Source: Eledone cirrhosa
Taxonomy: Eukaryota
Direction of reading: 5' to 3'
Length of the DNA stretch: 64,000 nucleotides
Assembly (NCBI GenBank): GCA_964016885.1
Contig: OZ024741.1
Location: 191,704,001 to 191,768,000, forward strand
In this document: positions 21,101 to 64,000 of the stretch, piece after piece
Layout: each line of letters begins with the position of its first letter
How positions within the stretch are numbered: the first letter of the stretch is position 1
Position numbers and translations under genes: made by a program
The notes under the pieces: generated by a model
What the model saw: only the letters and a program-made list of their open reading frames with translations
Told to the model about the DNA's origin: nothing
Database searches by the model: none

Positions 21101-21259
21101 AATGATTAGGAAGTCCTTGTCGTCTGTTAGAGCAGTAGTGTGTATTAGGGACTCGTAAAACCTATCCTTAAGTTCGTCTGGCAGCCCCGATTGGGGTGCG
21201 TAAGCTGATATTATTGTGGTAATTGTCTTATTCAGGACTAGTCTGAGTTTAATGATTCT

Positions 21260-21260: not shown

Positions 21261-21297
<37 letters not shown>

Positions 21298-21357
21298 TAT
21301 ATATATGCATATATGCATATATATATATGCATATATATATATATATATATATATATG

Positions 21358-21765
21358 CATCATCATCATCATCGTTTAACATCCATATTCCACGCTTGCA
21401 TGGGTTTGGACGGGAGTTTTCCCACTTGAGGCAAGAGTGGTTGTCTTGCTCGCATAGGACTGTCTGGCGGATTTTCTACGGCTGGATGCTCTTCCTAACA
21501 CCAACCACGTTTACAGTGTGGAACTGGGAGGTTTTTACCATGTTACCTACACGCCCACATTACAGCGTGGACTGTGTGTTTTTTGTCGTGACACCTACAC
21601 AACCTCATTTGTTTCGGCCTGGATGTTGTGGTACCAACATAACTTTACATTGAAAGGGGGTGGTGTGGATGGGGTGGGGGTAGTGGGACCGGGGTGTATT
21701 TTGTTAGAGGTGCCTACTGATTGTAGTAGGTTTTACTTTGTATTTAGGTAAGGCGAGTCTTCTTT
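21358..21765 (-). mobile_element. Short RTE 3' fragment (B/C-like) in (TA)n
   Basis: 3'UTR homologous to 23047-23560, with (GAT)n tail. Confidence 0.85.
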
Positions 21766-21776
21766 GCATATATATA

Positions 21777-21850
<74 letters not shown>

Positions 21851-21903
21851 AGTATGTATGTATACGTACATACATATATGTATACAGACGTACAGTAGCA
21901 TGC

Positions 21904-21936
<33 letters not shown>

Positions 21937-22073
21937 TATACACATATGCATACAGGTACACATACATATATGCACGCATCAGTTTAGCCGACGTTTATTA
22001 TAACGCCTGCTTTGTTCGTTTGTTTGTTTGTTTGCTTTTCAACTTATCGTTTTCGGTATGCCTGACCGATTTA

Positions 22074-22135
22074 ACTCACTCAATATGCAAATTAGGCTGC
22101 TCAGCCGTTAATTTTCATAAGGAAAGTATATACTT
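22074..22135 (+). promoter_or_regulatory. Candidate snRNA-type promoter (octamer, conserved box, TATA) of RZ-A
   Basis: ATGCAAAT at 22085-22092, TAATTTTCATA, TATATA at 22127-22132; same order and spacing in RZ-B/C/D. Confidence 0.5.
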
Positions 22136-22165
22136 TCGAACGTTCAACTATCTGGCAGATGGGTA

Positions 22166-22210
22166 AACGGTGCTGATGATAGCTAACAAGCTTGAAACTA
22201 GTACATCGTT
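22166..22210 (+). ncRNA. Minimal type I hammerhead ribozyme
   Basis: AACGGUG-CUGAUGA-U-AGCU-aaca-AGCU-U-GAAAC-UA-GUA/CAUCGUU; predicted cleavage after 22203. Confidence 0.85.
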
Positions 22211-22369
22211 CCTGTGTCAGTGTTGAACAAAAAGGAGACGTGGTTGCCTTAACACCGTATGGCATAAATTCAGGCTGTTCGATTTGTTGACAAACAAACA
22301 AACAAAGCAGGCGTTATAATAAACGTCGGCTAAACTGATGCGTGCATATATGTATGTGTACCTGTATGC

Positions 22370-22410
<41 letters not shown>

Positions 22411-22644
22411 TGCTACTGTACGTCTGTATACATATATGTATGTACGTATACATACATACTTACATTTAAGTAAGTGCCATACTAAGAGTGAGAAATGAAA
22501 TTTCGTTTTCATTTTTTTCAACTTATCGTTTTCGGTATGCCTGACCGATTTAACTCACTCAATATGCAAATTAGGCTGCTCAGCCGTTAATTTTCATAAG
22601 GAAAGTATATACTTTCGAACGTTCAACTATCTGGCAGATGGGTA

Positions 22645-22689
22645 AACGGTGCTGATGATAGCTAACAAGCTTGAAACTAGTACATCGTT
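22645..22689 (+). ncRNA. Minimal type I hammerhead ribozyme (second unit)
   Basis: Identical to 22166-22210. Confidence 0.85.
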
Positions 22690-22859
22690 CCTGTGTCAGT
22701 GTTGAACAAAAAGGTGACGTGGTTGCCTTAACACCGTATGGCATAAATTCAGGCTGTTCGATTTGTTGACAAACAAACGAACAAAGCAGGCGTTATAATA
22801 AACATCGGCTAAACTGATGCGTGCATATATGTATGTGTACCTGTATGCATATGTGTATA

Positions 22860-22923
<64 letters not shown>

Positions 22924-23046
22924 TGCTACTGTACGTCTGTATACATATATGTATGTACGTATACATACATACTTACATTTAAGTAAGTGCCATACTAAGA
23001 GTGAGAAATGAAATTTCGTTTTCATTTTTTTCAACTTATATATATA

Positions 23047-28255: not shown

Positions 28256-28297
28256 GCTCCGAAGACTCCAAACCTCGGTTTGGATGAAACAATTGTA
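28256..28297 (+). ncRNA. Hammerhead-like motif (CCGAAGA core) split by an RTE insertion
   Basis: GCU-CCGAAGA-C-UCCAAACC-uc-GGUUUGGA-U-GAAAC-AAUU-GUA; the helix I partner AGC resumes at 30035. Confidence 0.6.
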
Positions 28298-30899: not shown

Positions 30900-33700
30900 C
30901 TCAAACTTCCTTCACTCTGCTCTCCACCTGCCATCACCAGACATACTCATTTTTCCTCCAACCCTATCCCTTTTATCCCGTCACCTACCAACCCTTTTTG
31001 TCTCACCACCACTGAATCTGAAGATACCTTGCCTAACCATCTCAGCCCCTCTGTCTCTGCCACTTTCACTCCCTCATGTACCTCCACTGTTGTCGAGATT
31101 TGCGTTTTATACCAACCACATCAACCTGTGATGAGTTCCGCACATGTGTCGAGATTGAAGCGTCCTTTTGTCAACTAAAGGTCAAAGGTTTTTTCCACGG
31201 CATCATCACCATGGACGTACGGCTTCACTAGTCTCAGTTGCTGGTAATCACACTGGACGCCAAACTCTGGCCAGTCCAGTACGCTCGACTCCTTTGTGGA
31301 CACTTACCGGCATACAGAGATCCGGTTCGATTTCCATCAGCATTCTTGTTGTACCAACCTCAATTGGGTCCAACTCTCCACTCTTTGCAGCCTATTTCGC
31401 TACCAACAGATCGTGTCCTCCACCATTCACCATCTCATCTACTCCTCTCTCCTAGCCACCAACCTTATGGTACGTACCCCTTGCACACCCACTATCTATT
31501 CCCCCCCCCCCCCATAATACACAAACCAAATAATCTCGGCCATCCTATCATTTTCGCCTTCAAGTGCCCCACCGAAATCATCTCATAATGCCTGGATACC
31601 CTCCTAGCCCTGTTAGTCGTCTACTTCCCCTCCCACACCCACAACACCAACTTTTAGACTCCTTCTCCTGCCCTCCTGGCCCATCTCGCCTTCTCTTCAC
31701 CTTGGACATCTACAGTCATCCTTCGTGATGATGGCCACTGTGCTTTCCGACATTTTTGGACCTACGCCCTACCCCTTATCCCAACATTACCACTCTTCTC
31801 CGTCTGGCTGAGATGTTCTGACCCTCATTGGGTTTTCATTTTCCTGTGAATTCTACCAGTAAGTCTCTGGGGTAGCGATGAAAACCAGAATGGGTCCAAA
31901 CTATGCCAACTTTTTTGTTGGCTACGTCGAAGCCCACATCTCCCAGTACACTGGACCTACTCCTGAGCTATACGGTCATTATATCGACGACTATATTGGC
32001 GCCACCTCTCTATCACATGAACAGCTCGACTGCTTTCTTGCCTTTATTCAATCTTGTCATCTCGCTCTCATCTTTACCACCTCCAACTCCGATTCTTCTC
32101 TCCCTTTTCTTGATATCTCTCTCTATCGATCACTCTCACCACACCCTCTCTACTTCTATCTTCTATAAACCTACTGACTCCCACTCTTACCTCGATTTCA
32201 CCTTCTCCCATCCAGCCTACACCAAACTCTCCATACCCTACTCCCAATTCCTCCCTTTTCATCGGCTCTATAGCCAGGAACACTATTTCGAAACACCTTC
32301 CCTTCACATGGCCTCCCGCTTCATCCAGCATCGATATCCCCCAACCCTAATCCACGCTGCCCTCACCCACACCCATGAAACTGACCGTACCACAGCCCTC
32401 TCACTCTACCATCTCTCTCCCAACACCCACCTTTTCCTCAGACCAACCACCCCATCACCCTACCTCTTCGATGACATATTCTCCGTTTCTTCCGTACCCT
32501 CACTTCTGACCCCATAACTTCTCGCTTTTTCCCTAACCCACTTATCATTACATTTAAGCGCACCCGTAATCTCCGCTACCTCTTGGTACGCAGTTCCTTC
32601 TCTTCTCCTACGACTCCACCCAGCTCTCCTCCTTGTTATCGTCTCCACTGTAACAGCTGTCCTTTCATTTCCAACCTCACCACTCTCACAGGCACCAACG
32701 GTTTATTCCGTATCTGCCACACCGTCACCTGCACCTCCCCCCACGTAGTCTATGCTCTCCAGTGTTTCCCTAGTGGACAAACTGGACGCCGTTAGGCGGA
32801 CCGTTTTGCTGAACATTTGAGGGACATATGACTCGGTATGGAAACTCCCGTCACCCGTCATTTCCGTTCCCCAGGTCACTCTTCCCTACATGTCTCAGTC
32901 TTTGCTGTCCTTTTACATCACACATTACAGGCCTCACGCACCAGGACTGAACAGAGTCTGATTTTCAGCCTTGAGTCCTGTTTCCCCAATGGACTTAACT
33001 CCCTTCCCCAATTACTTTAATATTACTCATATACGTTCATGCTTACTTCTCTACCCCTTGTAACCACCACGTTTACGCGGTCCATTGTCACACACGCACT
33101 TGTACATTCACCCCTAGATTCCTATCGCTCTCTTATGGTCAGAAACATATACTCTTACTGCTGATACAGACCAAATAAATACACACACACCTCTATTTTC
33201 CCCTTCACAGAGCTGTATACACACACACACATACACACCCTTATATTAACATACTTCTACTTATAGCTTCATACTTACAAGCACATACACATACTTTCTG
33301 ACTTACGCATACACACACATATCCTCTTAGCTTTGTACGGATGTATAATAACACACACACGTATAGCTCTATATACAAAACGTTTTTTTTTCCCTTTCAG
33401 ATAGACGCGCTCCATCATCCACTTTTCTAATAAAGTATATCATACACAAAACGCCAGCATCAACAGTTTTCCAAGAGATGATAACATGAACGGACCTGCT
33501 ATTTTTCTCTACAAAAATATTTTCCAATTCTGCCCTGCCCATCCCTTCAATCTTTCTAATTTCTCATTGTTTCTTCTGATTAAGGACTAGCGTCCAAAAC
33601 GTTCAGACACTCTTCCTGCTATTTCAATCGTTAAACTAATATATTCCTTCCATATACTGTACCGTTTCAGTTGTTATTTCTGTTTACATTTTACGTACAT
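30900..33700 (+). mobile_element. Degenerate Penelope-like element (Neptune-like): RT plus GIY-YIG
   Basis: GVAM..RMGPNYANFFVG, YIDD, PFLDI, YKPTDSHSYLDF, SIPYSQ, CNSCPF, VVYALQC..GQTGR, RFAEH; decayed HHR CTGATTA-AGGAC...GTCC-AAAAC at 33576-33600. Confidence 0.85.
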
Positions 33701-33756
33701 ATATATATATATATATGTTTTGCAAGGTTTTGATATAAAATCGTGTGTCGAAACAA

Positions 33757-34369
33757 ATATTGTTATACTTGGGGAGGGTCATATTGTTGTAATATTGCCA
33801 AAAATAATAACAGAACACATTCACTGTTTGGATGGTTTTCGCTTCTGTATCTTTTATATCTCCATAGATAATTTATTTGGCAATCAATATTTATCATTGA
33901 TAGACCAGCGGTTAAAAATACAGATATATATATATCCATTTTAATTTTTATTTATTTAATTATTTATTCTTGTCTCTTTCTCTGTGCATGCGTTTGCATG
34001 AGTGTATAGTGTTTGGTGTGTGTGTTTGCATTTGAGTTTGTGTTTTTGTTTTTGTATTCTATCTTTGTTCACTAGTGTGTGTTTATATGTGTTTGTTGTT
34101 ATTGTACTGTATATACTTATTTATTTACTTATTTATATTTCCCTTAATATCAGTATTTTTTGTTTGGGTATGTTTGTTGTTATTCCATTTGTTTTTTTCT
34201 GTTTAATTTCGGTCTTCTTATTTCTATCTCAGTTGCTTCTCTGATTTGCCAAATAAATTAACTATGGAGATATAAAAGATACAGAAGCGAAAACCAACCA
34301 AACAGTGAGTGTGTTCTGTTATTATTTCTGGCAATATTACAATATGACCCTCCCCAAGTATAACAATAT
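33757..34369. mobile_element. MITE/foldback-like element with about 128-bp terminal inverted repeats
   Basis: 33757-33886 (ATATTGTTATACTTGGGGAGGGTCATATT...) is the reverse complement of 34242-34369. Confidence 0.7.
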
Positions 34370-38646: not shown

Positions 38647-39262
38647 CATGAGAAGAAAGAAGAATACTGTGTGGTTTGCACATGGGTTACATATGATAAA
38701 AATAGTCCTTCGTCAGTGATTTTCCAACCATCATTGGTATTTCATCGCATTAAAAATCAGATACCTCAGGTTGGTGCGAGCAATAACTATAAAAAAAGTT
38801 ATTGAGACCAGAATTCGCGTAAGGCGAGGAGGACAAGTAAACAACATAGAAGGATAAAAGCAAACCGAAGATAGGAAAATAAACAAGCAGCATGGTTGTC
38901 CGGTCAGCATAAACTGGGTGGATTTCATGAGCGAGAGAGGTACAGACCGTGTTGATGTGAACAAGAAGAGACCCACACAAGCCAAACGGGAGGAAGTGAG
39001 AAGGGGAGAAACAGAGAGTGAGTGAGTGGAAGTGTGAGGAAGAGGTCAGTCGAGAGAAAGTGTAACTGACAGAGGGGGCGAAAGAAGGTGAGAGAAATAT
39101 ATATGTATATATATATACATACATGCACACATATATATATGTACGTATGGATTCACCGAACATTTATTATAATGCTCGGTGTGTTTGTAAACAAACATCC
39201 CGAATTAAGCTGTACAGTGTCTAGCAACCATCGTTGCTCATTTGTTCAACCCTGACAAAGGA

Positions 39263-39305
39263 ACGCTGTACTAGTTTCAAGCGTATTAGCTATCGTCAGC
39301 AACGT
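39263..39305 (-). ncRNA. Minimal type I hammerhead ribozyme
   Basis: ACGUUG-CUGACGA-UAGCUaauaCGCUU-GAAAC-UA-GUA/CAGCGU. Confidence 0.8.
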
Positions 39306-39755
39306 ATACCTTCCTGCCAGATGATTGAACGTCTGAAAGTATATACTTTCCTTATGCATATTAACGGCTGAGCAGCCTAATTTGCATATCGAGTGAGTTA
39401 ATCGGCCGGGGTACCGAAAACGATAAACGGAAAAAATGAAACGAAATTTCATTTCTCACTCTTAGTACGGCTGTTACTTAAATATAAGTATGTATATGTG
39501 CATGTATGTATATATATATATATATACATACTACTGTACGTCTGTATACACATATGTATGTACGTATACATACTTATATTTAAGTAACAGCCGTACTAAG
39601 AGTGAGAAATGAAAGTTCGTTTCTTTTTTTCCGTTTATCGTTTTCGGTACCCCGGCCGATTAACTCACTCGATATGCAAATTAGGCTGCTCAGCCTTTAA
39701 TATGCATAAGGAAAGTATATACTTTCAGACGTTCAATCATCTGGCAGGAAGGTAT

Positions 39756-39798
39756 ACATTGCTGACGATAGCTAATAAGCTTGAAACTAGTACAGCGT
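39756..39798 (+). ncRNA. Minimal type I hammerhead ribozyme
   Basis: ACAUUG-CUGACGA-UAGCUaauaAGCUU-GAAAC-UA-GUA/CAGCGU. Confidence 0.8.
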
Positions 39799-40119
39799 TC
39801 TTTTGTCAGGGTTGAACAAACACACCGAGCATTATAATAAATGTTCGGTGAATCCATACGTACATATATATATTTGTGCATGTATGATATATATATACAT
39901 ACTACTGTACGTCTGTATACATATATGTATGTACGTATACATACTTATATTTAAGTAACAGCGGTACTAAGAGCGAGAAATGAAATTTCGTTTCATTTTT
40001 TCCGTTTATCGTTTTCGGTACCCCGGCCGATTAACTCACTCGATATGCAAATTAGGCTGCTCAGCCGTTAATATGCATAAGGAAAGTATATACTTTCAGA
40101 CGTTCAATCATCTGGCAGG

Positions 40120-40171
<52 letters not shown>

Positions 40172-40370: not shown

Positions 40371-43300
40371 TGATGGATGGATGGACGGACGGACTGCGGA
40401 ATCCTGGAGAGTGGAAGGGAGAGAAAAATCTGGACGCTCAGAGCGAAAATGCCAAAGTTAAAGTCAAATTCACCTCGTGGACGAGAATGCGAGCACTCCT
40501 CTTTGTTTCGTCCGCGGATGGCTAACATAACCCTATCTCCTCCCGCCCCCCACCACCCCCACCCTCCAAACGCAACCCAAAACTTCAGAGTTGGTACCAT
40601 AAATGTAGGCACCCTAAAGGGTCGCGCTAACGAGGTTGTAGAAATGCTTGAACGTAAGGAGCTCGATGTTTGTTGTATTCAAGAGACCAGGTGGAGGGGT
40701 GGGTATGCTAGATTCATTGAGGGTAAAAAACGATGTTATAAGCTTTTCTGGGTGGGAAACGACGATGGGCTGGGTGGAGTAGGAATCATGGTAGCAGAAA
40801 AGTGGGCAGATAAGATAATAGACGTAAATAGAGTGAACGACAGAATAATTAAAATAAGACTTGTCCTCAATAGAACTACGGTGACAGTAATATCTGCGTA
40901 CGCACCCCAATCCGGACTGCCCGGCACTATAAAAGACAGATTCTATGAGACACTGTTGCTAACTACCTCCCAAATATCTGACAGTGACTATATAATTATT
41001 GCAGGCGACCTAAATGGTCACGTTGGACAACATTGTGACGGCTACGACGAAATCCATGGAGGCTATGGGTTTGGTACTAGAAATGAGGAAGGCTCCAGAA
41101 TTCTGGAATACTGTGATGCAAATAACCTAACTATCTGTAACACTAACTTCAAAAGACGTGACAATCACCTGATCACCTATAGATCCGGGGAACACACAAG
41201 CCAGGTAGATTATATCCTTACCAGAAGACGTGACAGAGTGTCTGTTGTAAACACTAAATCCCTCCCCCATGAAGAATGCACCTCCCAACATAGACTGATA
41301 ATTAGCGACCTCATAGTCAGGACGAGACGTACTCGACAGCAGAAGAGGACTATCCTCAGGAGGAAAATATGGAAACTAAAGGACCCCACAGCCAGAAATA
41401 AATTTCAAAGCATATTACTTGATGCTTTCGACAGTAAGGAAGAGCATCTAGAATCGGACAATATAGAGGGACAGTGGGAATTTCTGAAAGCAAACCTGCT
41501 GTTGGCGACAGACGAAGTCTGTGGCTGGAGCAGGCCTGTAGGCAGGAGGAGAGTAACATGGTGGTGGAACAGTAGGGTGGAGGGGTCAATTAAGGCCAAA
41601 AGGCTTGGAAAGTATGGCGGGATGGGGGAAGTAGAGTAGACTATCAAGTGGCCAGGAGGGAAGCTAGGAGAGAAGTGTACTTAGCAAGAAGGGAAGCTGA
41701 GGAAAGAAAGTTCAAGCATGTTCTACAACGCGATGACCAAAAACGTGAGGTGTTCAGGATTGCCAGGCAATGCGTCAAGGAAAACCGTGATATTGTCGGG
41801 GAGAAGTGTGTACTAAACGATGATGGCATACTTGCCATCACCGACACTGATAAGAAGGTAGCTTGGAAGTGTCACTATGAAAGGCTACTAAATGAGGAGA
41901 ATAAATGGGAGAAAGACAGTCTCCCCCATATCGACCCAATAGAGGGACCAGCAGTGTTAGTCGAGGGGAGTATAATAAGTAAGGCAATCAAGGATATGAA
42001 GACTGGTAAGGCGGCTGGGCCTTCGGAAATAGTTGCTGAGATGCTGAAGGCATCTGGCACGGTGGGACACACCATGGTCACCCGCATAGTTAACCAAGTC
42101 GTACAGAATGGGGTTGTTCCGAAGGACTGGCATAGCAGCATCATTGTTAACTGTTATAAGGGTAAAGGAGACGCCCTAGATAGGAGTAACTATAGAGGCA
42201 TTAAATTAATCGACCAGGTCATGAAGGTCACGGAAAAAGTAATAGCGCAACTAATCAGAGAGAGAATTGATCTAGATGAAATGCAGTTCGGGTTTGTGTC
42301 AGGCAAAAGCACCACAGACGCTCTTTTCATAGTACGACAACTACAGGAGAAGTACCTAGCTAAAGGTAAACCCCTCTACTTAGCTTTTGTCGACCTGGAG
42401 AAAGCCTTCGACAGAGTCCCCCGCTCCATTATCTGGTGGGCTCTTAGAAAACTAGGCGTTGACGAATGGCTTGTGAGGGCTATACAAGCCATGTATAAAG
42501 AAACAGTCAGCAAGGTTAGAATTAACAACGAATATAGTGAAGAGTTTAGCGTAAAAGTTGGCGTCCATCAGGGCTCTGTTCTCAGCCCCCTACTATTTAT
42601 TATTGCCCTTCAGGCTATAACAGAGGAGTTCAAGACAGGCTGCCCATGGGAACTCCTATACGCAGACGACCTGACACTCATAGCGGAATCAATGGCCGAG
42701 CTAGAGAAGAAATTCCAAACATGGAAGCACGGCCTAGAGTCAAAAGGACTTAAAATTAACCTGGCTAAGACCAAAGTTCTAGTTTGTAGGAAAGAAAACA
42801 AGGCGGCGGTCCCTTCTGGGAAATGGTCGTGCTCGGTATGTAGGAAAGGCGTAGGTAGAAACTCCATCTTATGTCCTAAATGCAAAGTATGGGTGCATAA
42901 AAGATGTAGTGGGATCACAGGTAAGCTAACTAAGAACATAGACTTTACATGTGGCCGGTGTTCTGGTGCAATAAGTAGCAGCAAGTGCCCACAAAATACT
43001 AGCTCTTTCAATTGCGCAGAGGGTTCTATAGAAATAGTGGACAGCTTCCGTTACCTGGGCGATAAAATCAGCAGTGGGGGAGGGTGCTCTGAAAGTACTG
43101 TAGCTAGAGTCAGAACTGGTTGGAAAAAGTTCAGAGAGCTTATACCACTATTAGCTGCTAAAGGGTTCTCCCTAAAAATGAAAGGCAGGTTGTACGATGC
43201 CTGCATACGAACAGCAATGTTGCATGGTAGTGAGACCTGGGCATTGTGTGCAGAGGATATACGCAGACTAGAGAGGAACGAAGCTTGCATGCTCCGCTGG

Positions 43301-43979
43301 ATGTGTAACAGTAATATACGTGAACGGCAAAGCATAAACGAACTAAGGAAAAAATTAGAGATAAGAGGGATCAGATGTTGTTTACTCGAGAGAAGACTGC
43401 GTTGGTATGGACACGTGATGCGCATGAAAGTCGATAGCTGTATTACAAAGTGCAGGGCAATAAAGATAGACGGTAGCCACGGAATAGGCAGACCTAGAAA
43501 AACATGGGATGAGCTGATAAACTCCGACCTCACACACTTACACCTCTCCAAGACAATGTCACTGGACCGTGACCTTTGGCGGTACTCAGTAACAGAGAAG
43601 ACCCGCCTTGCCAGTAGGCATCTCTAACAAAATACACCCCGTCCCGCCACCACCCCCACCCCATCCACACCACCCCGTTCTATGTAAAGATATGTTGGTG
43701 CCGCGCCATCCAGGCCGAAACAAATGAGATCGTGTAGGTGTCACGACAAAAAAACACACAGTCCACGCTTTAATGTGGCCGTGTAGGCAACACGGTAAAA
43801 ACCTCCCAGACCCACACTGTAAATGTGGTTGGTGTTAGGAAGGGCATCCAACTGTAGAAAACCTGCCAGACAGTCCTATGCGAGCAAGACAATCACTCTT
43901 GCCTCAAGTGGGACTACCCCCGTCCAAACCCATGCAAGCGTGGAACACGGACGTTAAACGTTGATGATGATGATGATGA

Positions 43980-45842: not shown

Positions 45843-52695
<6,853 letters not shown>

Positions 52696-53293
52696 ATATG
52701 AAAGACGTAAAATAAGAAAATTATAAAAATTAACTTACTTAAGTTTCACTCCAACTAATTAGTTTCTGAAAGGGGATATACATAGTGTTCAAAACCATGG
52801 AGAATTCCTTTCTTCTTCAGGGAGTCAATTCTCTGCTAAGATCCCAGGCGATAGGCGGACACAGGGAGCTCAAACAAAAATAATTCAGTGAATGGAAAAG
52901 AAGCAAGCGCGGACTGAATTTCAAGACACTGAAAATTTCACTGCCTTCCCAGACGGTGGCACATTCAAAAGAATCAATCACGTGACATCGAGGTTAATCA
53001 GTGAGGAGTGGGATGTTAAAAAGACAGTAGCCAAAATATTACTATGAATCATAGCAGTAATTCAGGTGAATTTTTGCTCAAAAAATAATTTGGAGTTAAT
53101 TATAAAGAATTAGTATATCTACCGACATATTTATACAGAAGTATACTTATGCTAGCAAGATATAGGTTTCGTCTTAGTAACTTTGTGGTTCAATACAAAT
53201 ATGTAGAACAATTATATGAAAGACGTAAAAGAAGAAAATTATAATAATTAACTTACTTACTTAAGTTTCACTCCAACTAATTAGTTTCTGAAA
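52696..53293 (-). mobile_element. ORF-less about 520-bp unit with about 80-bp terminal direct repeat and hammerhead
   Basis: 52696-52771 is repeated at 53214-53293; TA flanks. Confidence 0.75.
52748..52825 (-). ncRNA. Type I hammerhead ribozyme
   Basis: ACUCC-CUGAAGA-A-GAAAGG...CCUUUC-A-GAAAC-UAAUUA-GUU/GGAGU. Confidence 0.8.
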
Positions 53294-53586
53294 TATATAT
53301 ATATATACGTATATATATATATATATATACGTATATATATATATATATATACGTATATATATATAATTAAGTTAAAAATGTACATCCACATATGTATACT
53401 GAAATACTAGTATGCATATGAATACACACACGTATACATATGTAGATGTACCGAGTTTTTTCACTGGTCACTTTACTGTGAGTGTCCAGCTATTCTGTAT
53501 GTAAACACACAGACAAACCGGTTTTTAGAGTCATACTGGTTTTTGAGGAAACACCTTTCCTCTATTCTCCAGAAAGCCAGACAAGG

Positions 53587-53631
53587 AATATTGAACTAGT
53601 TTCGTTGTTGTTACAACTCATCAGCAATATT
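53587..53631 (-). ncRNA. Minimal type I hammerhead ribozyme
   Basis: AAUAUUG-CUGAUGA-GUUGU-aaca-ACAAC-GAAAC-UA-GUU/CAAUAUU. Confidence 0.88.
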
Positions 53632-53828
53632 TACCTATCTTCCGGCCTTTCTAGAGAATCGTAAAAGCACATATCGTTATATGCTTTTTCTATGAAAATT
53701 AGTAGTGGGCAGACTAATTTGCATAGAGCGTGAGTACGCACCGGTTCAACGGAGACGATAAAAACGAATAACGAAACGAAATTAAATTTCGCTTCGTTTG
53801 TAACGTTGTAAAGGCCGGAAGATAGGTA

Positions 53829-53873
53829 AATATTGCTGATGAGTTGTAACAACAACGAAACTAGTTCAATATT
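53829..53873 (+). ncRNA. Minimal type I hammerhead ribozyme
   Basis: Same motif on the plus strand. Confidence 0.88.
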
Positions 53874-54161
53874 CCTTGTCTGGCTTTCTGGAGAATAGAG
53901 GAAAGGTGTTTCCTCAAAAACCAGTATGACTCTAAAAACCGGTTTGTCTGTGTGTTTACATACAGAATAGCTGGACACTCACAGTAAAGTGACCAGTGAA
54001 AAAACTCGGTACATCTACATATGTATACGTGTGTGTATTCATATGCATACTAGTATTTCAGTATACATATGTGGATGTACATTTTTAACTTAATTGTTTA
54101 AGCGTCAGTCATACAAAAGTGAGTTACAAACGAAGCGAAATTTAATTTCGTTTCGTTATTC

Positions 54162-54165
<4 letters not shown>

Positions 54166-54222
<57 letters not shown>

Positions 54223-54224
54223 CG

Positions 54225-54274
<50 letters not shown>

Positions 54275-54296
54275 CGTATATATATATATATATACG

Positions 54297-54334
<38 letters not shown>

Positions 54335-54336
54335 CG

Positions 54337-54368
<32 letters not shown>

Positions 54369-54426
54369 TATATATATATACGTATATATATATATATATA
54401 TACGTATATATATATATATATATACG

Positions 54427-54458
<32 letters not shown>

Positions 54459-54488
54459 CGTATATATATATATATATTTATATATACG

Positions 54489-54524
<36 letters not shown>

Positions 54525-54526
54525 CG

Positions 54527-54586
<60 letters not shown>

Positions 54587-54618
54587 CGTATATATATATA
54601 TATATATTTATATATACG

Positions 54619-54652
<34 letters not shown>

Positions 54653-54685
54653 CGTATATATATATATATATATATTTATATATAC

Positions 54686-54744
<59 letters not shown>

Positions 54745-54745
54745 C

Positions 54746-54786
<41 letters not shown>

Positions 54787-54787
54787 C

Positions 54788-54844
<57 letters not shown>

Positions 54845-54899
54845 CGTATATATATATATATACGTATATATATATATATACGTATATATATATATATAC

Positions 54900-54946
<47 letters not shown>

Positions 54947-54965
54947 CGTATATATATATATATAC

Positions 54966-55006
<41 letters not shown>

Positions 55007-55025
55007 CGTATATATATATATATAC

Positions 55026-55074
<49 letters not shown>

Positions 55075-55128
55075 CGTATATATATATATATATATTTATA
55101 TATACGTATATATATATATATATACGTA

Positions 55129-55191
<63 letters not shown>

Positions 55192-55218
55192 GTATATATA
55201 TATATATATATATACTTA

Positions 55219-55265
<47 letters not shown>

Positions 55266-55359
55266 GTATATATATATATATATATATATAAATATATATA
55301 TATATACGTATATATATATATATATATATATAAATATATATATATATACGTATATATAT

Positions 55360-55392
<33 letters not shown>

Positions 55393-55585
55393 CGTATATA
55401 TATATATATATATATATATACGTATATATATATATATATATATTTATATATACGTATATATATATATATTTATATATACGTATATATATATATATATATT
55501 TATATATACGTATATATATATATATTTATATATACGTATATATACGTATATATATATATATATATTTATATATATTTATATATAC

Positions 55586-55656
<71 letters not shown>

Positions 55657-55667
55657 CTTATATATAC

Positions 55668-55716
<49 letters not shown>

Positions 55717-55717
55717 C

Positions 55718-55792
<75 letters not shown>

Positions 55793-55793
55793 C

Positions 55794-55852
<59 letters not shown>

Positions 55853-55854
55853 CG

Positions 55855-55886
<32 letters not shown>

Positions 55887-55888
55887 CG

Positions 55889-55926
<38 letters not shown>

Positions 55927-55928
55927 CG

Positions 55929-55962
<34 letters not shown>

Positions 55963-55964
55963 CG

Positions 55965-55998
<34 letters not shown>

Positions 55999-55999
55999 C

Positions 56000-56040
<41 letters not shown>

Positions 56041-56042
56041 CG

Positions 56043-56076
<34 letters not shown>

Positions 56077-56078
56077 CG

Positions 56079-56112
<34 letters not shown>

Positions 56113-56113
56113 C

Positions 56114-56165
<52 letters not shown>
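54166..56165. repeat. (TA)n array punctuated by TTTA...CG
   Basis: Direct reading. Confidence 0.95.
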
Positions 56166-56167
<2 letters not shown>

Positions 56168-56349
56168 TAATACAATAACAGAGATAGCTTAACGCTAAAC
56201 TCCGACTGGTAACCATCTCACTCAACAAACATTAGGTTATATGTAAGTATAACCCAATTTAAGTGTTTGGGGTGCTAACTATATGTATTTTGTGGAAAGC
56301 CAGTTGTATTATTTTATGAGATATAATTAAAGTTAAAATATATCTCTCT

Positions 56350-56474
56350 TTCCAAACAATTGTTTCATTATAAGTTTTCTACAATTTGGGAAAATGTTTC
56401 CAGTTTATGTAGAAGCCTAACATATATTCATGTAAGAATATATTTAGGTGGGCACTTATAAATCTTCAGTGGAA
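56350..56474 (-). ncRNA. Type I hammerhead with long helix II insertion
   Basis: UUCCA-CUGAAGA-U-UUAUAAGU...ACUUAUAA-U-GAAAC-AAUU-GUU/UGGAA. Confidence 0.75.
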
Positions 56475-57335
56475 GCCCATTAAACTTTGAAATAAGAAAA
56501 AATTCTTACCGCAGTTAAAAATCGTGTCCGCTAAGCTGCTCCTTCACACATCAAATGACCGCCAAATTTGAAATTCCAGCAGTCTTTTGACTGAGAAAGA
56601 TTCATAGCGTCACGAAACGGGAAAGAGAGACAACCACGACACAAGAAAAGAAAAAAATAATATACACTCGGGTTAATTAGTTTTTTCAAAAACATTATCA
56701 ATCCAACATGTTAAGAACTCAATTGAAATTAAAAAAATAAATGTATGCGTGTATGAATTACACACTCATATAGATATTTTCTTAGGCTAAAAACAGAGGT
56801 GATACCAAAATAACAAACCACATCACATCACCGCAGCAAATACTGGAGGTTACGCTTTAAAGGCAATTCGGAATGTAAATCTCCGGCCAAATTAAGAGTA
56901 AAATATTTAATACACGCGGGTTAATTAGTTATTTAAAACTATTATCTATTCCACGTGTTAAGAACTCAATTAATTAAAAAAAAAATGTATGCATGTAATT
57001 ATTTACACATGCATATATATATTTTCCTAGGCTAAAAGCAGAGAAGTGACAACCAAAAAACCTCCATATCTCACAACAGTAACAAATACAGAAAGTCATG
57101 TTTATAAGGTACCTGGAAATAAGTACCTCTGGCCAAATCAAGAGTAACATAATTAATACAATAACAGAGATAGCTTAACGCTAAACTCCGACTGGTAACC
57201 ATCTCACTCAACAAACATTAGGTTATATGTTAGTATAACCCAATTTAAGTGTTTGGGGTGCTAACTATATGTATTTTGTGGAAAGCCAGTTGTATTATTT
57301 TATGAGATATAATTAAAGTTAAAATATATCTCTCT

Positions 57336-57461
57336 TTCCAAACAATTGTTTCATTATAAGTTTTCTACAATTTGGGAGAATGTTTCCAGTTTATGTAAAA
57401 GCCTAACATATATTCATGTAAGAATTTTATTTAGGTGGGCACTTATAAATCTTCAGTGGAA
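57336..57461 (-). ncRNA. Type I hammerhead, second unit
   Basis: Same core and helices as 56350-56474. Confidence 0.75.
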
Positions 57462-57751
57462 GCCCATTAAACTTTGAAATAAGAAAAAATTCTTACCGCA
57501 GTTAAAAGTCGTGTCCGCTAAGCTGCTCCTTCACACATCGAATGACCGCCAAATTTGAAATTCCAGCAGTCTTTTGACTGAGGAAGATTCATAGCGTCAC
57601 GAAGCGAGAAAGGGAGACAACCACGACACGAGAAAAGAAAAAAATAATATACACTCGGATTAATTGGTTTTTTCAAAAACATTATCAATCCAACGTGTTA
57701 AGAACTCAATTGAAATTAAAAATATATATATTTATATATACGTATATATAC

Positions 57752-57821
<70 letters not shown>

Positions 57822-58189
57822 CTAGAAATTGATTAACATATATATAAACATGAATAATCACAGGAGATAATTTTTACAAGTGTGTAACCACACACAGCTA
57901 GGTAGGTAACTAAATAAAGTTGACCAGAACTTCAAAAATAGATACCTTATAATATTATTAATCTTTCCTGTATATATTCCATTAAAGAAATATATTTCAC
58001 CAATTAATCAGATGGGAACCACGGAAGTGGGGACTTGGATTTTCAACAAGGAAGAAGTTCCAGCAATCCGTGCTTACACTTCAAGTTCAATTCTGCGACT
58101 GGCCATCACCACGTGTCGTATTTACTAGAAATACAAACATCATAGTAGCTTCGTCCCAGTGGCGTGAATAGGGTTATCGACAACTAGTA

Positions 58190-58225
<36 letters not shown>

Positions 58226-58290
58226 CGTATATATATATATATACGTATATATATATATATACGTGTATATATATATATATATATATATAC

Positions 58291-58374
<84 letters not shown>

Positions 58375-58489
58375 GTATATATATATATATATACGTATAT
58401 ATATACGTATATATATATATATATATATATACGTATATATATACGTATATATATATATATATATACGTATATATATATATATATACGTA

Positions 58490-58548
<59 letters not shown>

Positions 58549-58780
58549 GTATATATATATATAATTAAGTTAAAGTGTACATCTACATATGTATACGGAA
58601 GTATTAGTATGCATATAAATACACACATGTATACATATGTACATGTACTCAGCTTTTCACTAGACACTTTACAGTGAGTGTCAGCTAGTCTGTATGTAAC
58701 CACATAGGCGGACCGGGTTTTAGAGTCATACGAGTTTTCAAGGAAACACATTTCCTCTATTCCCCAGAGGGCCAGACAGG

Positions 58781-58825
58781 AATATTGGACTAGTTTCGAT
58801 GTTATTACATCTCATCAGCAATATT
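58781..58825 (-). ncRNA. Minimal type I hammerhead ribozyme (first of five in RZ-D)
   Basis: AAUAUUG-CUGAUGA-GAUGU-aaua-ACAUC-GAAAC-UA-GUC/CAAUAUU; canonical core and GUC triplet. Confidence 0.9.
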
Positions 58826-58870
58826 TACCCATCTTCCGGCTTCTCTGGAGAATTGTAAAAGCACATATCG

Positions 58871-58930
58871 TTATATGCTTTTTCTATGAAAATTAGTAGT
58901 GGGTAGACCAATTTGCATAGAACGTGAGTC
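58871..58930 (-). promoter_or_regulatory. Candidate snRNA-type promoter of an RZ-D unit
   Basis: Minus strand ACTCAC...ATGCAAAT (58911-58918)...TAATTTTCATA...CATATAA. Confidence 0.5.
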
Positions 58931-58959
58931 ATTGTACGCACCGGTTCAGCGGAAACGAT

Positions 58960-58996
58960 AAAAACAAATAACGAAACGAAATTAAATTTCGTTTCG
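58960..58996 (-). terminator. Palindrome plus T5 run, candidate Pol III terminator / RNA 3' end of the RZ unit
   Basis: CGAAACGAAATT-T-AATTTCGTTTCG then TTATTTGTTTTT; equivalent hairpin plus T6-7 in RZ-A/B. Confidence 0.4.
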
Positions 58997-60841
58997 CTTC
59001 TAACTCACTTTTGTATGACTGACGCTTAAACAATTAAGTTAAAGTGTACATCTACATATGTATACGGAAGTATTAGTATGCATATAAATACACACATGTA
59101 TACATATGTACATGTACTCAGCTTTTCACTAGACACTTTACAGTGAGTGTCAGCTAGTCTGTATGTAACCACATAGGCGGACCGGGTTTTAGAGTCATAC
59201 GAGTTTTCAAGGAAACACATTTCCTCTATTCCCCAGAGGGCCAGACAGGAATATTGGACTAGTTTCGATGTTATTACATCTCATCAGCAATATTTACCCA
59301 TCTTCCGGCTTCTCTGGAGAATTGTAAAAGCACATATCGTTATATGCTTTTTCTATGAAAATTAGTAGTGGGTAGACCAATTTGCATAGAACGTGAGTCA
59401 TTGTACGCACCGGTTCAGCGGAAACGATAAAAACAAATAACGAAACGAAATTAAATTTCGTTTCGCTTCTAACTCACTTTTGTATGACTGACGCTTAAAC
59501 AATTAAGTTAAAGTGTACATCTACATATGTATACGGAAGTATTAGTATGCATATAAATACACACATGTATACATATGTACATGTACTCAGCTTTTCACTA
59601 GACACTTTACAGTGAGTGTCAGCTAGTCTGTATGTAACCACACAGACGGACCGGGTTTTAGAGTCATACGAGTTTTCAAGGAAACACATTTCCTCTATTC
59701 TCCAGAGGGCCAGACAGGAATATTGGACTAGTTTCGATGTTATTACATCTCATCATCAATATTTACCCATCTTCCGGCTTCTCTGGAGAATTGTAAAAGC
59801 ACATATCGTTATATGCTTTTTCTATGAAAATTAGTAGTGGGTAGACCAATTTGCATAGAACGTGAGTCATTGTACGCACCGGTTCAGCGGAAACGATAAA
59901 AACAAATAACGAAACGAAATTAAATTTCGTTTCGCTTCTAACTCACTTTTGTATGACTGACGCTTAAACAATTAAGTTAAAGTGTACATCTACATATGTA
60001 TACGGAAGTATTAGTATGCATATAAATACACACATGTATACATATGTACATATACTCAGCTTTTCACTAGACACTTTACAGTGAGTGTCAGCTAGTCTGT
60101 ATGTAACCACACAGGCGGACCGGGTTTTAGAGTCATACGAGTTTTCAAGGAAACACATTTCCTCTATTCTCCAGAGGGCCAGACAGGAATATTGGACTAG
60201 TTTCGATGTTATTACATCTCATCAGCAATATTTACCCATCTTCCGGCTTCTCTGGAGACTTGTAAAAGCACATATCGTTATATGCTTTTTCTATGAAAAT
60301 TAGTAGTGGGTAGACCAATTTGCATAGAACGTGAGTCATTGTACGCACCGGTTCAGCGGAAACGATAAAAACAAATAACGAAACGAAATTAAATTTCGTT
60401 TCGCTTCTAACTCACTTTTGTATGACTGACGCTTAAACAATTAAGTTAAAGTGTACATCTACATATGTATACGGAAGTATTAGTATGCATATAAATACAC
60501 ACATGTATACATATGTACATGTACTCAGCTTTTCACTAGACACTTTACAGTGAGTGTCAGCTAGTCTGTATGTAACCACACAGACGGACCGGGTTTTAGA
60601 GTCATACGAGTTTTCAAGGAAACACATTTCCTCTATTCTCCAGAGGGCCAGACAGGAATATTGGACTAGTTTCGATGTTATTACATCTCATCAGCAATAT
60701 TTACCCATCTTCCGGCTTCTCTGGAGAATTGTAAAAGCACATATCGTTATATGCTTTTTCTATGAAATTAGTAGTGGGTCAGTCATACAAAAGTGAGTTA
60801 GAAGCGAAACGAAATTTAATTTCGTTTCGTTATTTGTTTTT

Positions 60842-60873
<32 letters not shown>

Positions 60874-60920
60874 CGTATATATATACATATATATACATAT
60901 ATATATATACGTATATATAC

Positions 60921-60951
<31 letters not shown>

Positions 60952-60998
60952 CGTATATATATACATATATATACATATATATATATACGTATATATAC

Positions 60999-61031
<33 letters not shown>

Positions 61032-61211
61032 CGTATATATACATATATATATATATACGTATATATATATATATATATATACGTATATATATATATATAC
61101 GTATATATATATATATATACGTATATATATATATATATTTACGTATATATACATATATATATATATATATTTACGTATATATTCATATATATATATATAT
61201 ATATATATACG

Positions 61212-61252
<41 letters not shown>

Positions 61253-61437
61253 GTATATATATATATATATTTACGTATATATACATATATATATATATAC
61301 GTATATATACATATATATATATATATATATACGTATATATATATATACGTATATATATATATATATGTATACGTACATATATATATATATATACGTATAT
61401 ATATATATTATATACGTATATATATATATATATATAC

Positions 61438-61500
<63 letters not shown>

Positions 61501-61629
61501 TTTTGAGTTTATGTTGGTTGTATACCAACACCTCAGTATGCAGGCTGGAGCACTCGACGAAGTGCGCAGGTTGGTTTGGTTACTCCGGAGTAGTGTAAAA
61601 TAAAGTTAAATAAAAGTCAAATGATTAAA

Positions 61630-64000
61630 ATTTAGCTTCGTTTATTACTGCTATATATATTTCAGTGACAGCCATCTTTGGCTTTGACCTCTTCAGGCAG
61701 TTTGAATTATTATGGTATAGACAAGTACATATGTTGTTTAGGTGTATGATATTGTCAATACTCTGATATGCCCAGTTCCTTGTTGGGTTGTTAATTCACT
61801 GGGGAACTGGAGTCATATATATAACTAGCTGATTTCTATAACTAAATTTATTATTCCAACATATATTAAAAGGTGTCTCAATTGAGTCCCTTATATAGAC
61901 CGTTATATACAGTTTCCAATTTTAAGTATCCTATCTTTAATTACAGTCTACTCTATCATGAAGTAATAAAAGTTTCTATATTAGGATGATTACTCCCTAT
62001 CATAGAGTGCTACAACTGAATGTTCCATACGAAGAGCCAGATATTCATGTCAAAGTTCTTTGTAAATGTAGTCTACTCACAGAACCTGTCAGGGGCCCTA
62101 TTAGAACCACGTCTATATAACCCCTGGTAAGCTCTGGGTCAGCGTATGGCTGACTGCATGGCAAAGCTAAATATCTCTAGGGTAGACCAAAAAACATCCC
62201 TCACTTACAATGTAATTAATCTATCTATCAAGTTATACATGCATATATAATTCACATACCACTTGTACATAATTCATTGTACTCAACATATAGGTTATAC
62301 AGATCTCTTATGTTAATGAATTAATCCTATATTTATCTAATGCTAGCACTCCATGCATATAACAACATTTGCACAAATAATTCATTGTTGAATTCGGTGT
62401 TTAAAGTTTACATATAATTATATAGTGATACAATACAGTCTAAGTAATTGAAAGTAATTATACTAAAAGTAGGTGTACATGGGGATATTTCTAGGGTAAA
62501 AGGTTATAGATAGATGGAACGGATCGTGTTAAGATAGGGTGGATCAGTGAGTGTGGAGTTGTGGTGTAAGGTGTGCCCTGGAGGTGTAGTGCTAGAAGTG
62601 GTGATGGGTTCAAGCCTGACATTGCTATATATTGGGTTTAAAGTTTTGGAAGGAGTGTCGGAAGCGGTGCTGGCATGACGCGAACACTTCCGATTTTTTA
62701 TTAAGGAGGTTATGGTTTGAGAAGATAATAGTATGGGTCTCTAGTAGACAGAGGTTACAAAATTTATTAGGTGGTTTGTACGATGCCGCCTTACCTATCA
62801 CTTCCCATTTAAGTGTATGAGATCTATTTTTAGTTTTTAGATAGTGTATGTAGCTAGATAGTGAAGTGGAGTTGGCTAGACTGTGTTTTTGAAAGAATGG
62901 AGGTGCGAATTGTATCTGGTTTTGAAGCAGTTTGAAGTAGAGCCTATATAGGTTTCAGAAGAGTTGCTAGTTGTGACGGTGCATGAGTAGATGATATCTT
63001 TGATTAAGCATTTTTTATCTAAAGGGCGGGTTCTATTAGATCTACAGTTACAATTATTTTGGATGTTAGCCTGCCGGTTATTATGTTGTGTAGAAGTCTG
63101 GATGATAGTTGTTGCATTATGGTTATGGGGGTTGTCGCTCTCAGCGTTATTGCTTACATTAGTGATATTACTATTATTACTATTGTTATTAGGGTTAGTT
63201 GATATAATGTTATTTTGAAGGTTTACCCCCTGTTGTGTTTTAGTTTGTTGGAAGTAAGAATTAATTTTTCTTTTATTGCTACTAGCTATGTGACGTGGTA
63301 GAGTAGGAGATTTTAATTGTGTTTTTGCTTAAAAATGTATTATTTCTTCTTCTATTTTTGTTTTTTATGTCTGGTGAGATGCTTCCGTTTATGGTATTAT
63401 GGTGACTTCTGTGGTGTGGGTTACGTTTGTTGGCATCCTTCGTATTAGTGTGTGTGTGGTTGCTATTCTTATTACTATTTTTCCTCATGGACATATTGTG
63501 CGAAATAATGTTGTAGCTATGTGTTTTTGTAGGTAGGAACCCGATCTCCTTATTGTGGCCTGATCTAGCTAATGCCTGATTATAATATTGCGAGTGTTTG
63601 CTAAATATGTTTTCGCCATAGGATAGATTAGAGATTCTATTGGATATTCCCTTAGAGATAGAGTTTAATATTGACCTAGGGTGGTTAGACTTGGTATCTA
63701 CGTAAATCAGTTTTTCCTTAGGTTTATGGAATGGTGTATATATCCTTGAGTCTAGGTAGAGGGTGGCGTCTAGGAAGTTAACGTTTTTAGTGTTTTTGTC
63801 TATGGTGATACTTAGGTTATAGTTTTTGAAAGTCTTGTGCAATAGTTTTCTAGTTCTTTCTATATTGAATTTTTTATAGTCTATAAGTAGAAGTGCATCA
63901 TCGCGGTACAAACCACCGTTGAGGTATGGAAGGTCCTTATGGATTTCGTTTAGTAAATATAGGCCGACCAAATCAGTGACCTGCGCCGACTCACGAGATC
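61630..64000 (-). mobile_element. Penelope-like element (YRDD RT plus C-terminal GIY-YIG) with 3' hammerhead; runs off the window
   Basis: ORF 63282..63971 (GLYRDDAL, NFLDATL, HKP...SNHP, NTIKISYS); downstream CNCR, IIYSC, YIGST, CNLCLLE, LLNKKSE, CQH. Confidence 0.9.
61647..61701 (-). ncRNA. Type I hammerhead in the PLE 3' repeat
   Basis: ACUGC-CUGAAGA-GGUCAAAGCCA-aaga-UGGCUGUCACU-GAAAU-AUAU-AUA/GCAGU followed by AAUAAA. Confidence 0.8.

What the first reader, a model, noticed from the sequence alone, without database searches (positions are those of the whole stretch)
58562..60842. Hammerhead-ribozyme tandem repeats (retrozyme-like family RZ-A/B/C/D) colonising (TA)n arrays
Seen: each 469-bp ORF-less unit carries a type I hammerhead (CUGAUGA...GAAAC-UA-GUC). 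Related arrays lie at 21848-23037, 39095-40120 and 53364-54165. Helices covary between families while the core is fixed: helix I is AACGGUG/CAUCGUU, ACGUUG/CAGCGU or AAUAUUG/CAAUAUU; helix II is GUUGU/ACAAC versus GAUGU/ACAUC. Helix III is the palindrome ACUAGU. Every array has an inverted 5' arm and TA-rich flanks. Known: tandem minimal HHRs with palindromic helix III cleave as dimers and define metazoan non-LTR retrozymes (newt satellite 2, Schistosoma Sm-alpha, cave-cricket pDo500), some yielding unit-length linear or circular RNAs. Inverted 5' segments are typical of Penelope-like insertions. Inference: a young non-autonomous ribozyme retroelement family, possibly undescribed in this lineage.
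Basis: partly seen in the sequence, partly recalled or inferred. Interest (0 to 1): 0.92.

Follow-up and report, generated by a model that had tools for sequence, protein, structure and literature searches.

The report
Hammerhead retrozyme repeats with Penelope-type insertions
A 469-base non-coding repeat carrying a self-cutting hammerhead RNA motif has spread as short arrays through this animal genome, and the ends of its insertions show the marks left by Penelope-like jumping genes, so it is a new member of a known kind of RNA parasite with unusually clear clues to how it is copied.

Summary
Confirmed. 58563-60779 holds 4.7 head-to-tail 469-bp units (99% alike); 4 of 5 carry an intact type I hammerhead on the minus strand, one has C3A. 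Helices I and II covary across subfamilies. The genome has 1,463 exact copies of this core and 39,957 superfamily cores (controls 0). Insertions end at two fixed 3' sites 74 nt apart, not at the ribozyme cut. Arms join head to head, mostly in (TA)n, with 13-16-bp target duplications. In 30 of 30 two-ended insertions of this subfamily one arm ends at each site; older subfamilies 13 of 15. Two young autonomous Penelope-like (PLE) families in the genome show the same anatomy. Verdict: a non-LTR retrozyme, i.e. a non-autonomous element moved by PLE target-primed reverse transcription, probably in an octopod. Not shown: transcription, cleavage, RNA circles, or the partner PLE (no homology to the families examined). 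New member of a known kind; the one-site-per-strand rule is the fresh, testable detail.

The parts
58563..60779 (-). Main arm of array D: 4.73 tandem 469-bp units (58563-59031, 59032-59500, 59501-59969, 59970-60438, partial 60439-60779); 3' end at fixed site 'end 1' (58563)
60778..60841 (+). Second, inverted arm: 3'-terminal tail (unit positions 9-72) ending at fixed site 'end 2'; joined head to head with the main arm
58766..58836 (-). Type I hammerhead, unit 1 (C3 58818, cut after 58788, GUC)
59235..59305 (-). Type I hammerhead, unit 2 (cut after 59257)
59704..59774 (-). Hammerhead of unit 3 with core change C3A (59756), probably inactive (inferred)
60173..60243 (-). Type I hammerhead, unit 4 (cut after 60195)
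60642..60712 (-). Type I hammerhead, partial unit 5 (cut after 60664)
58188..58562 (.). (TA)n target tract, left
60842..61498 (.). (TA)n target tract, right
53365..54165 (.). Array C (87-88% to D): minus arm ending at end 1 (53365), plus arm ending at end 2 (54165); hammerheads at 53624 (-) and 53836 (+), GUU
21848..23039 (.). Array A: inverted arm ending at end 1 (21848), about two plus-strand units ending at end 2; hammerheads near 22173 and 22652 (+), GUA, U.U at base of helix II
39097..40120 (.). Array B: inverted pair of arms, neither canonical end kept; hammerheads near 39299 (-) and 39762 (+)
49239..49449 (-). 3' fragment of an A/B-type unit inside the long (TA)n tract
61500..64000 (-). 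Neighbour, not part of the repeat: broken Hydra-type PLE (RT and GIY-YIG, frameshifted) with its own hammerhead-like motif at 61696, in the same (TA)n tract; continues beyond the window

Best explanation
A non-autonomous retroelement of the animal non-LTR retrozyme kind, copied in trans by a Penelope-like element (PLE). SHOWN in DNA: ORF-less 420-480-bp units with a conserved type I hammerhead; thousands of dispersed insertions; two fixed 3' ends; head-to-head arms; (TA)n targets; 13-16-bp target duplications. INFERRED cycle: an array is transcribed; neighbouring hammerheads, probably paired through the palindromic helix III, cut out a unit-length RNA that a host ligase closes into a circle (or the multimer stays uncut). 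A PLE RT/GIY-YIG protein binds the tail region and nicks both strands of AT-rich DNA about 13-16 bp apart. One nick primes cDNA at end 2 and the other at end 1, both internal to the RNA. The two cDNAs run for variable lengths, past the ribozyme junction, and join at their truncated ends. Arrays can later grow by local duplication.
For: Copy number 1,463 exact D cores and 39,957 superfamily cores, reversed controls 0; 1,850 exact end-2/(TA)n junctions for C/D. Ribozyme: 7 of 15 pairs change on both sides, 92% of cells paired, 0 of 500 shuffles reach it, slid controls 29-44%; core 15-16 of 17 identical between D and A/B/E against 47-52% outside. Ends: 21 of 33 positional loci and 9 of 15 best-hit loci have two canonical ends, always one of each, none with two alike; 23 of 24 head-to-head pairs within 5 kb from scan coordinates are of unlike ends, and the exception is two abutting insertions (3 of the 23 also). 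42 of 54 canonical ends abut at least 60% TA/AT (counted by hand). All 3 two-armed loci with low-TA flanks show a 13-16-bp duplication. Both arms of a locus usually share subfamily or locus-private variants. Only 2 of 72 5' truncations lie near the cut site, as chance would give. Autonomous PLE P1 (1,217-aa ORF): 4 of 4 chosen pairs have one tailed and one untailed end; Hydra-type PLE (832-aa ORF): in 8 of 9 pairs exactly one arm stops at its end 1. PLE RT starts at two internal sites that bound the tail and extends both strands in vitro (PMC11167929).
Against: No transcript, cleavage or circle is shown. No sequence homology links the unit to any PLE 3' region examined (P1, Hydra-type, Neptune-like, Poseidon-like), so the partner is unknown. 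In older A/B/E subfamilies 2 of 15 two-ended loci carry tail sequence on both arms (L038, L053). In several arrays internal units share private variants that terminal units lack (L014, L017, L022, L025, the window array), so array length is partly post-insertion and is not proof of rolling-circle copying. In vitro, hammerhead cleavage was not needed for PLE insertion and uncut RNA was the main substrate (PMC11167929); 8 of 9 Xenopus retrozyme dimers did not cleave (preprint). Loci for the core-conservation and truncation counts were picked by an intact core, which biases them.
Confidence: 0.85

Rival explanations
1. Same PLE-driven insertion, but the template is an uncut read-through multimer; the hammerhead is nearly silent or serves another step, and no RNA circle is involved.
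For: Ends and truncations ignore the cut site. Hammerhead mutants insert normally in vitro for an anole PLE (PMC11167929). Helix III is not predicted in a monomer and a two-strand fold did not give the swapped dimer. Some arrays hold unlike units.
Against: Core and helices are kept with compensatory changes over about 50% divergence, which implies selection on the fold. The cut-to-cut unit folds as a highly paired circle (z -8.2 sense, -5.9 antisense; family A -9.6). Coral, mussel and axolotl retrozymes do make circles (PMC7229834).
Confidence: 0.3
2. The units are only the 5'-truncated 3' ends (pLTRs) of an autonomous PLE that was not found, duplicated locally.
For: PLE insertions are mostly 5'-truncated and Xenopus retrozymes resemble pLTRs (preprint). 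The partner search covered only some families.
Against: In the 48 D loci the arms run from unit into unit, into TA or into flank, never into coding sequence. Units repeat in exact register up to about 30 or more times (L094-L097). Several separate subfamilies each propagate as tandem units.
Confidence: 0.08
3. A satellite or DNA-level repeat spread by recombination or fold-back events in (TA)n, with a hammerhead as passenger.
For: Higher-order repeats in long arrays (L062, L094-L095) and shared private variants of adjacent units show DNA-level expansion. Some 5' junctions hold inverted copies of the flank (L073).
Against: Fixed 3' ends, random 5' ends, target duplications and the same anatomy as ORF-bearing PLEs are marks of target-primed reverse transcription.
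Confidence: 0.04

Closest known systems
Animal non-LTR retrozymes (Cervera and de la Pena 2020, PMC7229834; Li, Clavereau and Pollet 2026, bioRxiv 10.64898/2026.07.22.740005)
   Same: ORF-less tandem units under 50% GC, each with a canonical-size type I hammerhead, weak palindromic helix III, highly paired predicted circle, target duplications longer than 4 bp, PLEs in the same genome. The U.U at the base of helix II in A/B matches axolotl HHR_Amex2.
   Different: Units of 420-480 bp are at or above the upper end of the 150-450 bp given in 2020 (the preprint reports 51-972). No pLTR homologue found here, unlike 24 of 57 Xenopus families. RNA not examined. The texts read do not describe tail, inverted arms or (TA)n targeting for retrozymes.
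Endonuclease-bearing Penelope-like elements (PMC8557442, PMC3846280, PMC11167929, PMC4209133)
   Same: Partial tandems, head-to-head inverted 5'-truncated arm, tail on one end only, short target duplication, (TA)n preference, hammerhead upstream of the 3' end.
   Different: No ORF. Tail of about 60-74 nt against 30-40 nt. Hammerhead has canonical helix I and loop 2 rather than the minimal PLE form.
Non-autonomous Chlamys PLEs such as MRC1 (PMC8557442, passage)
   Same: [quoted passage not shown]
   Different: Algal, mostly without hammerheads, and similar to their autonomous partner at the 3' end.
Rfam Hammerhead_HH9 (RF02275, clan CL00010)
   Same: Full-length structural match, E 6.7e-6.
   Different: 31.8 bits against a cut-off of 52; helix III much shorter.

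Membership tests
Animal non-LTR retrozyme | Short tandem units each with a type I hammerhead, at least two consecutive complete motifs | tested here: met
   Units 1-2 and 4-5 intact; covariation
Animal non-LTR retrozyme | No protein coding; no LTR, PBS or tRNA part | tested here: met
   Longest Met-started frame 64 aa; no tRNA gene in the window; no LTR structure. PBS/PPT not searched separately.
Animal non-LTR retrozyme | Dispersed multi-copy insertions with target duplications longer than 4 bp | tested here: met
   1,463 exact cores; 13-16-bp duplication in 3 of 3 low-TA two-armed loci
Animal non-LTR retrozyme | Self-cleavage in vitro as monomer or dimer | not testable with these tools
   Needs a bench assay
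Animal non-LTR retrozyme | Expressed as unit-length linear and circular RNA | not testable with these tools
Non-autonomous PLE | Fixed 3' ends with a tail on one end, 5' truncation, inverted head-to-head arm | tested here: met
Non-autonomous PLE | 3' or pLTR sequence shared with an autonomous PLE | tested here: inconclusive
   None found against P1, Hydra-type, Neptune-like and Poseidon-like loci held; not all families sampled
Autonomous PLE | ORF with RT and GIY-YIG endonuclease | tested here: not met
Rfam hammerhead families | Score at or above gathering threshold | tested here: not met

The most novel reading that the evidence does not exclude
PLE integration is asymmetric twin priming: one protein dimer holds one RNA by its tail and uses each of the two internal start sites exactly once, one per target strand, which explains head-to-head arms, the one-sided tail and the target duplication together. 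This retrozyme supplies the tail as a circle, has replaced any sequence likeness to its partner by a shared fold (end 1 lies in the loop of a small AU-rich hairpin here, in P1 and in the Hydra-type PLE), and is a 469-nt minimal substrate for testing it.
Probability: 0.35. Interest if true: 0.72.

Novelty: new member of a known kind. Interest (0 to 1): 0.5.

Why it matters
How animal retrozymes move is open: the papers read propose PLEs from co-occurrence and pLTR likeness, not from insertion scars. Here a young family with about 40,000 ribozyme cores (roughly half a percent of the genome, rough estimate) leaves PLE-specific scars at nearly every locus, beside two active candidate drivers. The rule that each insertion uses both start sites once adds an in-genome constraint to the 2024 in vitro PLE mechanism, which reported no strand difference in start sites. 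It gives a small substrate for asking whether hammerhead cleavage and circles matter for PLE-type transposition.

Tried and rejected
Partner search: neighbouring Hydra-type PLE, P1, Neptune-like and Poseidon-like 3' regions show no homology to the unit beyond TA-like sequence or nested retrozyme copies; 12 shortened stretches of the 20 long-frame GIY-YIG loci I wanted were examined. A short-helix pattern search gave deletion variants and chance hits, no ORF-linked ribozyme in the 5 of 30 loci read. A distant protein query returned hits that look like P1 only, judged from shared places and scores. An apparent retrozyme/P1 chimera at L073 was rejected: it is an inverted copy of the flank across the TA tract. 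Two-strand folding did not give the helix III dimer; the method cannot model it well. The end-1 pattern missed young D copies and overcounts one strand, so only its coordinates were used. Rfam miRNA hits on the TA-like hairpin are far below cut-off and were discarded. Earlier-findings look-ups by sequence and place were empty.

Full report
Observation. The stretch 58563-60779 is 4.7 copies of a 469-bp unit, 99% alike, between long (TA)n tracts. On the minus strand each unit reads helix I AAUAUUG / CUGAUGA / helix II GAUG-UAAUAA-CAUC / GAAACUAGUC / CAAUAUU. The cut falls after unit position 244. Unit 3 has C3A, so 4 of 5 cores are intact. Rfam gives nothing at gathering level, but HH9 aligns over all 77 positions at 31.8 bits, E 6.7e-6. 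The unit has no frame over 64 aa from Met and the window no tRNA gene. Arrays A, B and C are homologous, at about 64-67% (A, B; partial alignments) and 87-88% (C) to D.

The ribozyme is selected. In 12 chosen variants from the subfamilies, 7 of 15 pairs change on both sides and 92% of cells pair; 0 of 500 shuffles reach this and slid controls give 29-44%. The sequences are related, so this is not a probability. The core is 15-16 of 17 identical between D and A/B/E, against 47-52% elsewhere; these sequences were found by the core pattern, which inflates that figure, but the helix changes are not fixed by the pattern. Beyond the ribozyme, 21 of 92 consensus pairs over 8 monomers show a double change. 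The cut-to-cut monomer folds as a circle with z -8.2 (antisense -5.9; family A -9.6; 40 shuffles each). Helices I and II are well populated and helix III is not. A weak palindromic helix III is the known sign of dimer-dependent hammerheads (PMC4209133, parts 1-2 of 4 read; PMC7229834, parts 2-4 of 6 and passages read). Dimer cleavage here is inference.

Abundance and age. The window lies in a 3.0-Gb assembly. It holds 1,463 exact D cores and 39,957 cores of the wider pattern, with reversed controls at 0, and 1,850 exact end-2/(TA)n junctions of the C/D type. Held D monomers differ from their centroid by a median of 0.6% (98 monomers, some counted twice through overlapping loci). The best database hit of a neighbouring PLE protein is an Octopus vulgaris protein at 67%, the next at 46%, so the host is probably an octopod; this rests on one hit.

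Insertion anatomy. I took the 35 loci behind the first 100 exact hits on contig C1, dropped one segmental duplicate (L072) and one array whose far end was not reached (L094-L095), and cut L079 by hand where a second insertion abuts. Of 33 loci, 21 have two canonical 3' ends, 4 end 1 only, 6 end 2 only, and 2 end 2 plus an internal inverted piece. Of 15 further loci from the 30 best hits (overlapping or open-ended ones left out), 9 have two canonical ends. All 30 have one end 1 (unit position 469) and one end 2 (74 nt further), with arms head to head. Scan coordinates on C1 give 23 of 24 such pairs, the exception being L079. In A/B/E loci (40 examined, 4 without a match), 13 have end 1 plus end 2 and 2 have tail on both arms with one end cut short against non-TA DNA. 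42 of 54 canonical ends abut TA-rich DNA. The 3 two-armed loci with low-TA flanks on both sides carry 13-16-bp duplications. Only 2 of 72 5' truncations lie at positions 238-248, about what chance gives. End 1 sits in the loop of a hairpin CUUA..UAAG kept in all subfamilies. Both arms of a locus usually share variants, so they come from one template; internal units often share variants that terminal units lack, so arrays also grow after insertion.

Who moves it. The same (TA)n tract holds a broken Hydra-type PLE (61500 onward; motifs RWR, DKT, CxCx5C, CxxC and CxH as listed in PMC8557442, passages read), and a second PLE, P1, lies 3 kb past the window. Both have many near-identical intact copies: 1,217-aa and 832-aa frames. 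P1 has an end 1 and a tail of 47-59 nt; 4 of 4 chosen head-to-head pairs have one of each. In the Hydra-type family exactly one arm stops at end 1 in 8 of 9 pairs; the other end was not reached. PLE papers describe this anatomy: inverted 5'-truncated arm, tail on one end, 8-10-bp duplication (PMC3846280, passages; PMC8557442). In vitro an anole PLE cuts and extends both strands, starts at two internal sites that bound the tail, is predicted to be a dimer, shows no strand difference in start site, and does not need its hammerhead (PMC11167929, parts 1-2 of 4). I found no sequence shared between the unit and any PLE 3' region held, so the partner is not named. P1's clade was not tested; a likeness to Nematis is recalled only.

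Mechanism. Shown: non-coding, selected ribozyme fold, PLE-type scars, one template per insertion, ends away from the cut site. Inferred: two target-primed cDNAs, one from each start site, joined at their truncated ends (confidence in PLE-driven retrotransposition 0.85). Because arms cross the ribozyme junction with no pile-up there, the template is a ligated circle or an uncut multimer. Selection on the core and precedent in coral, mussel and axolotl favour the circle, about 0.6 to 0.4. The axolotl HHR_Amex2 has the same U.U feature.

Novelty. Non-LTR retrozymes are known, also in a mollusc (mussel), and a 2026 preprint (parts 1-3 of 5 and passages read) already calls them non-autonomous PLEs, from co-occurrence and pLTR trees in vertebrates. 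Searches for octopus or cephalopod with hammerhead or retrozyme, and for Penelope with twin priming, listed no paper that by title or abstract describes this family or the one-site-per-strand rule (listings only, except the papers named). A 2026 octopus repeat annotation has no occurrence of 'ribozyme' in its main text (PMC13282606, passages). The library lacks most subscription papers, Dfam and Repbase were not available, and the supplements of PMC7229834 and the preprint were not seen. Earlier notes of this scan report similar PLE-type scars for ribozyme-free tandem units in other genomes; they are unchecked leads. Verdict: new member of a known kind, interest 0.5.

Noticed in passing
window 61500-64000 (-), continuing in L031 to about window-equivalent 64850: Broken Hydra-type PLE with an Asn-rich stretch before the GIY-YIG domain and a hammerhead-like motif (CUGAAGA, palindromic AUAUAU helix III) at 61696. 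The young subfamily (832-aa frame, 1.6-kb 3' UTR) has a CCGAAGA core variant instead.
   Followed up: partly
L031:6100-8440 (-); L102-L131; L201-L204: PLE P1: young, 1,217-aa frame with a long Asn-rich insert, C-terminal GIY-YIG, (TA)n target, atypical hammerhead-like core with no clear helix I or III. Clade not tested.
   Followed up: partly
window 30900-33700 (+) and 33717-34300 (-): Old decayed Neptune-like PLE with a degenerate hammerhead near 33577, next to an old P1 3' fragment with tail.
   Followed up: partly
L238, L239, L241, L246: A Neptune-like family whose hammerhead has U.U at the base of helix II and helix III AG-UA-CU, the same design as retrozyme A/B, about 200 nt before its 3' end; no sequence homology found.
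   Followed up: partly
L073:1612-1700; L083: 5' junctions of one-armed insertions that carry an inverted copy of the flanking DNA across the TA tract, as if the cDNA switched to the target.
   Followed up: partly
L062, L094-L097: Long arrays (14 to over 40 units) with higher-order repeats of 2 or 7-8 units: insertions turning into satellites.
   Followed up: partly
window 18479-21475, 23549-26638, 28288-29718, 40374-43627: Several near-intact LINE frames (endonuclease, RT, PHD finger; about 1,000 aa); Pfam checked for one.
   Followed up: no
window 45843-56167: A 10-kb (TA)n tract holding several inserted elements; such tracts act as sinks for PLEs and their parasites and seem to lengthen beside insertions.
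   Followed up: no
window 56178-57700: Another AT-rich repeat: about 246-bp period (78%) and a roughly 1-kb direct duplication; no hammerhead found by the scan.
   Followed up: no
L045:1475-1530; L047:1475-1530: Short fragments with a further hammerhead-like core (CUGAUGA ... GAAACUAGUC, different helix II) and a partial inverted copy; source element unknown.
   Followed up: partly
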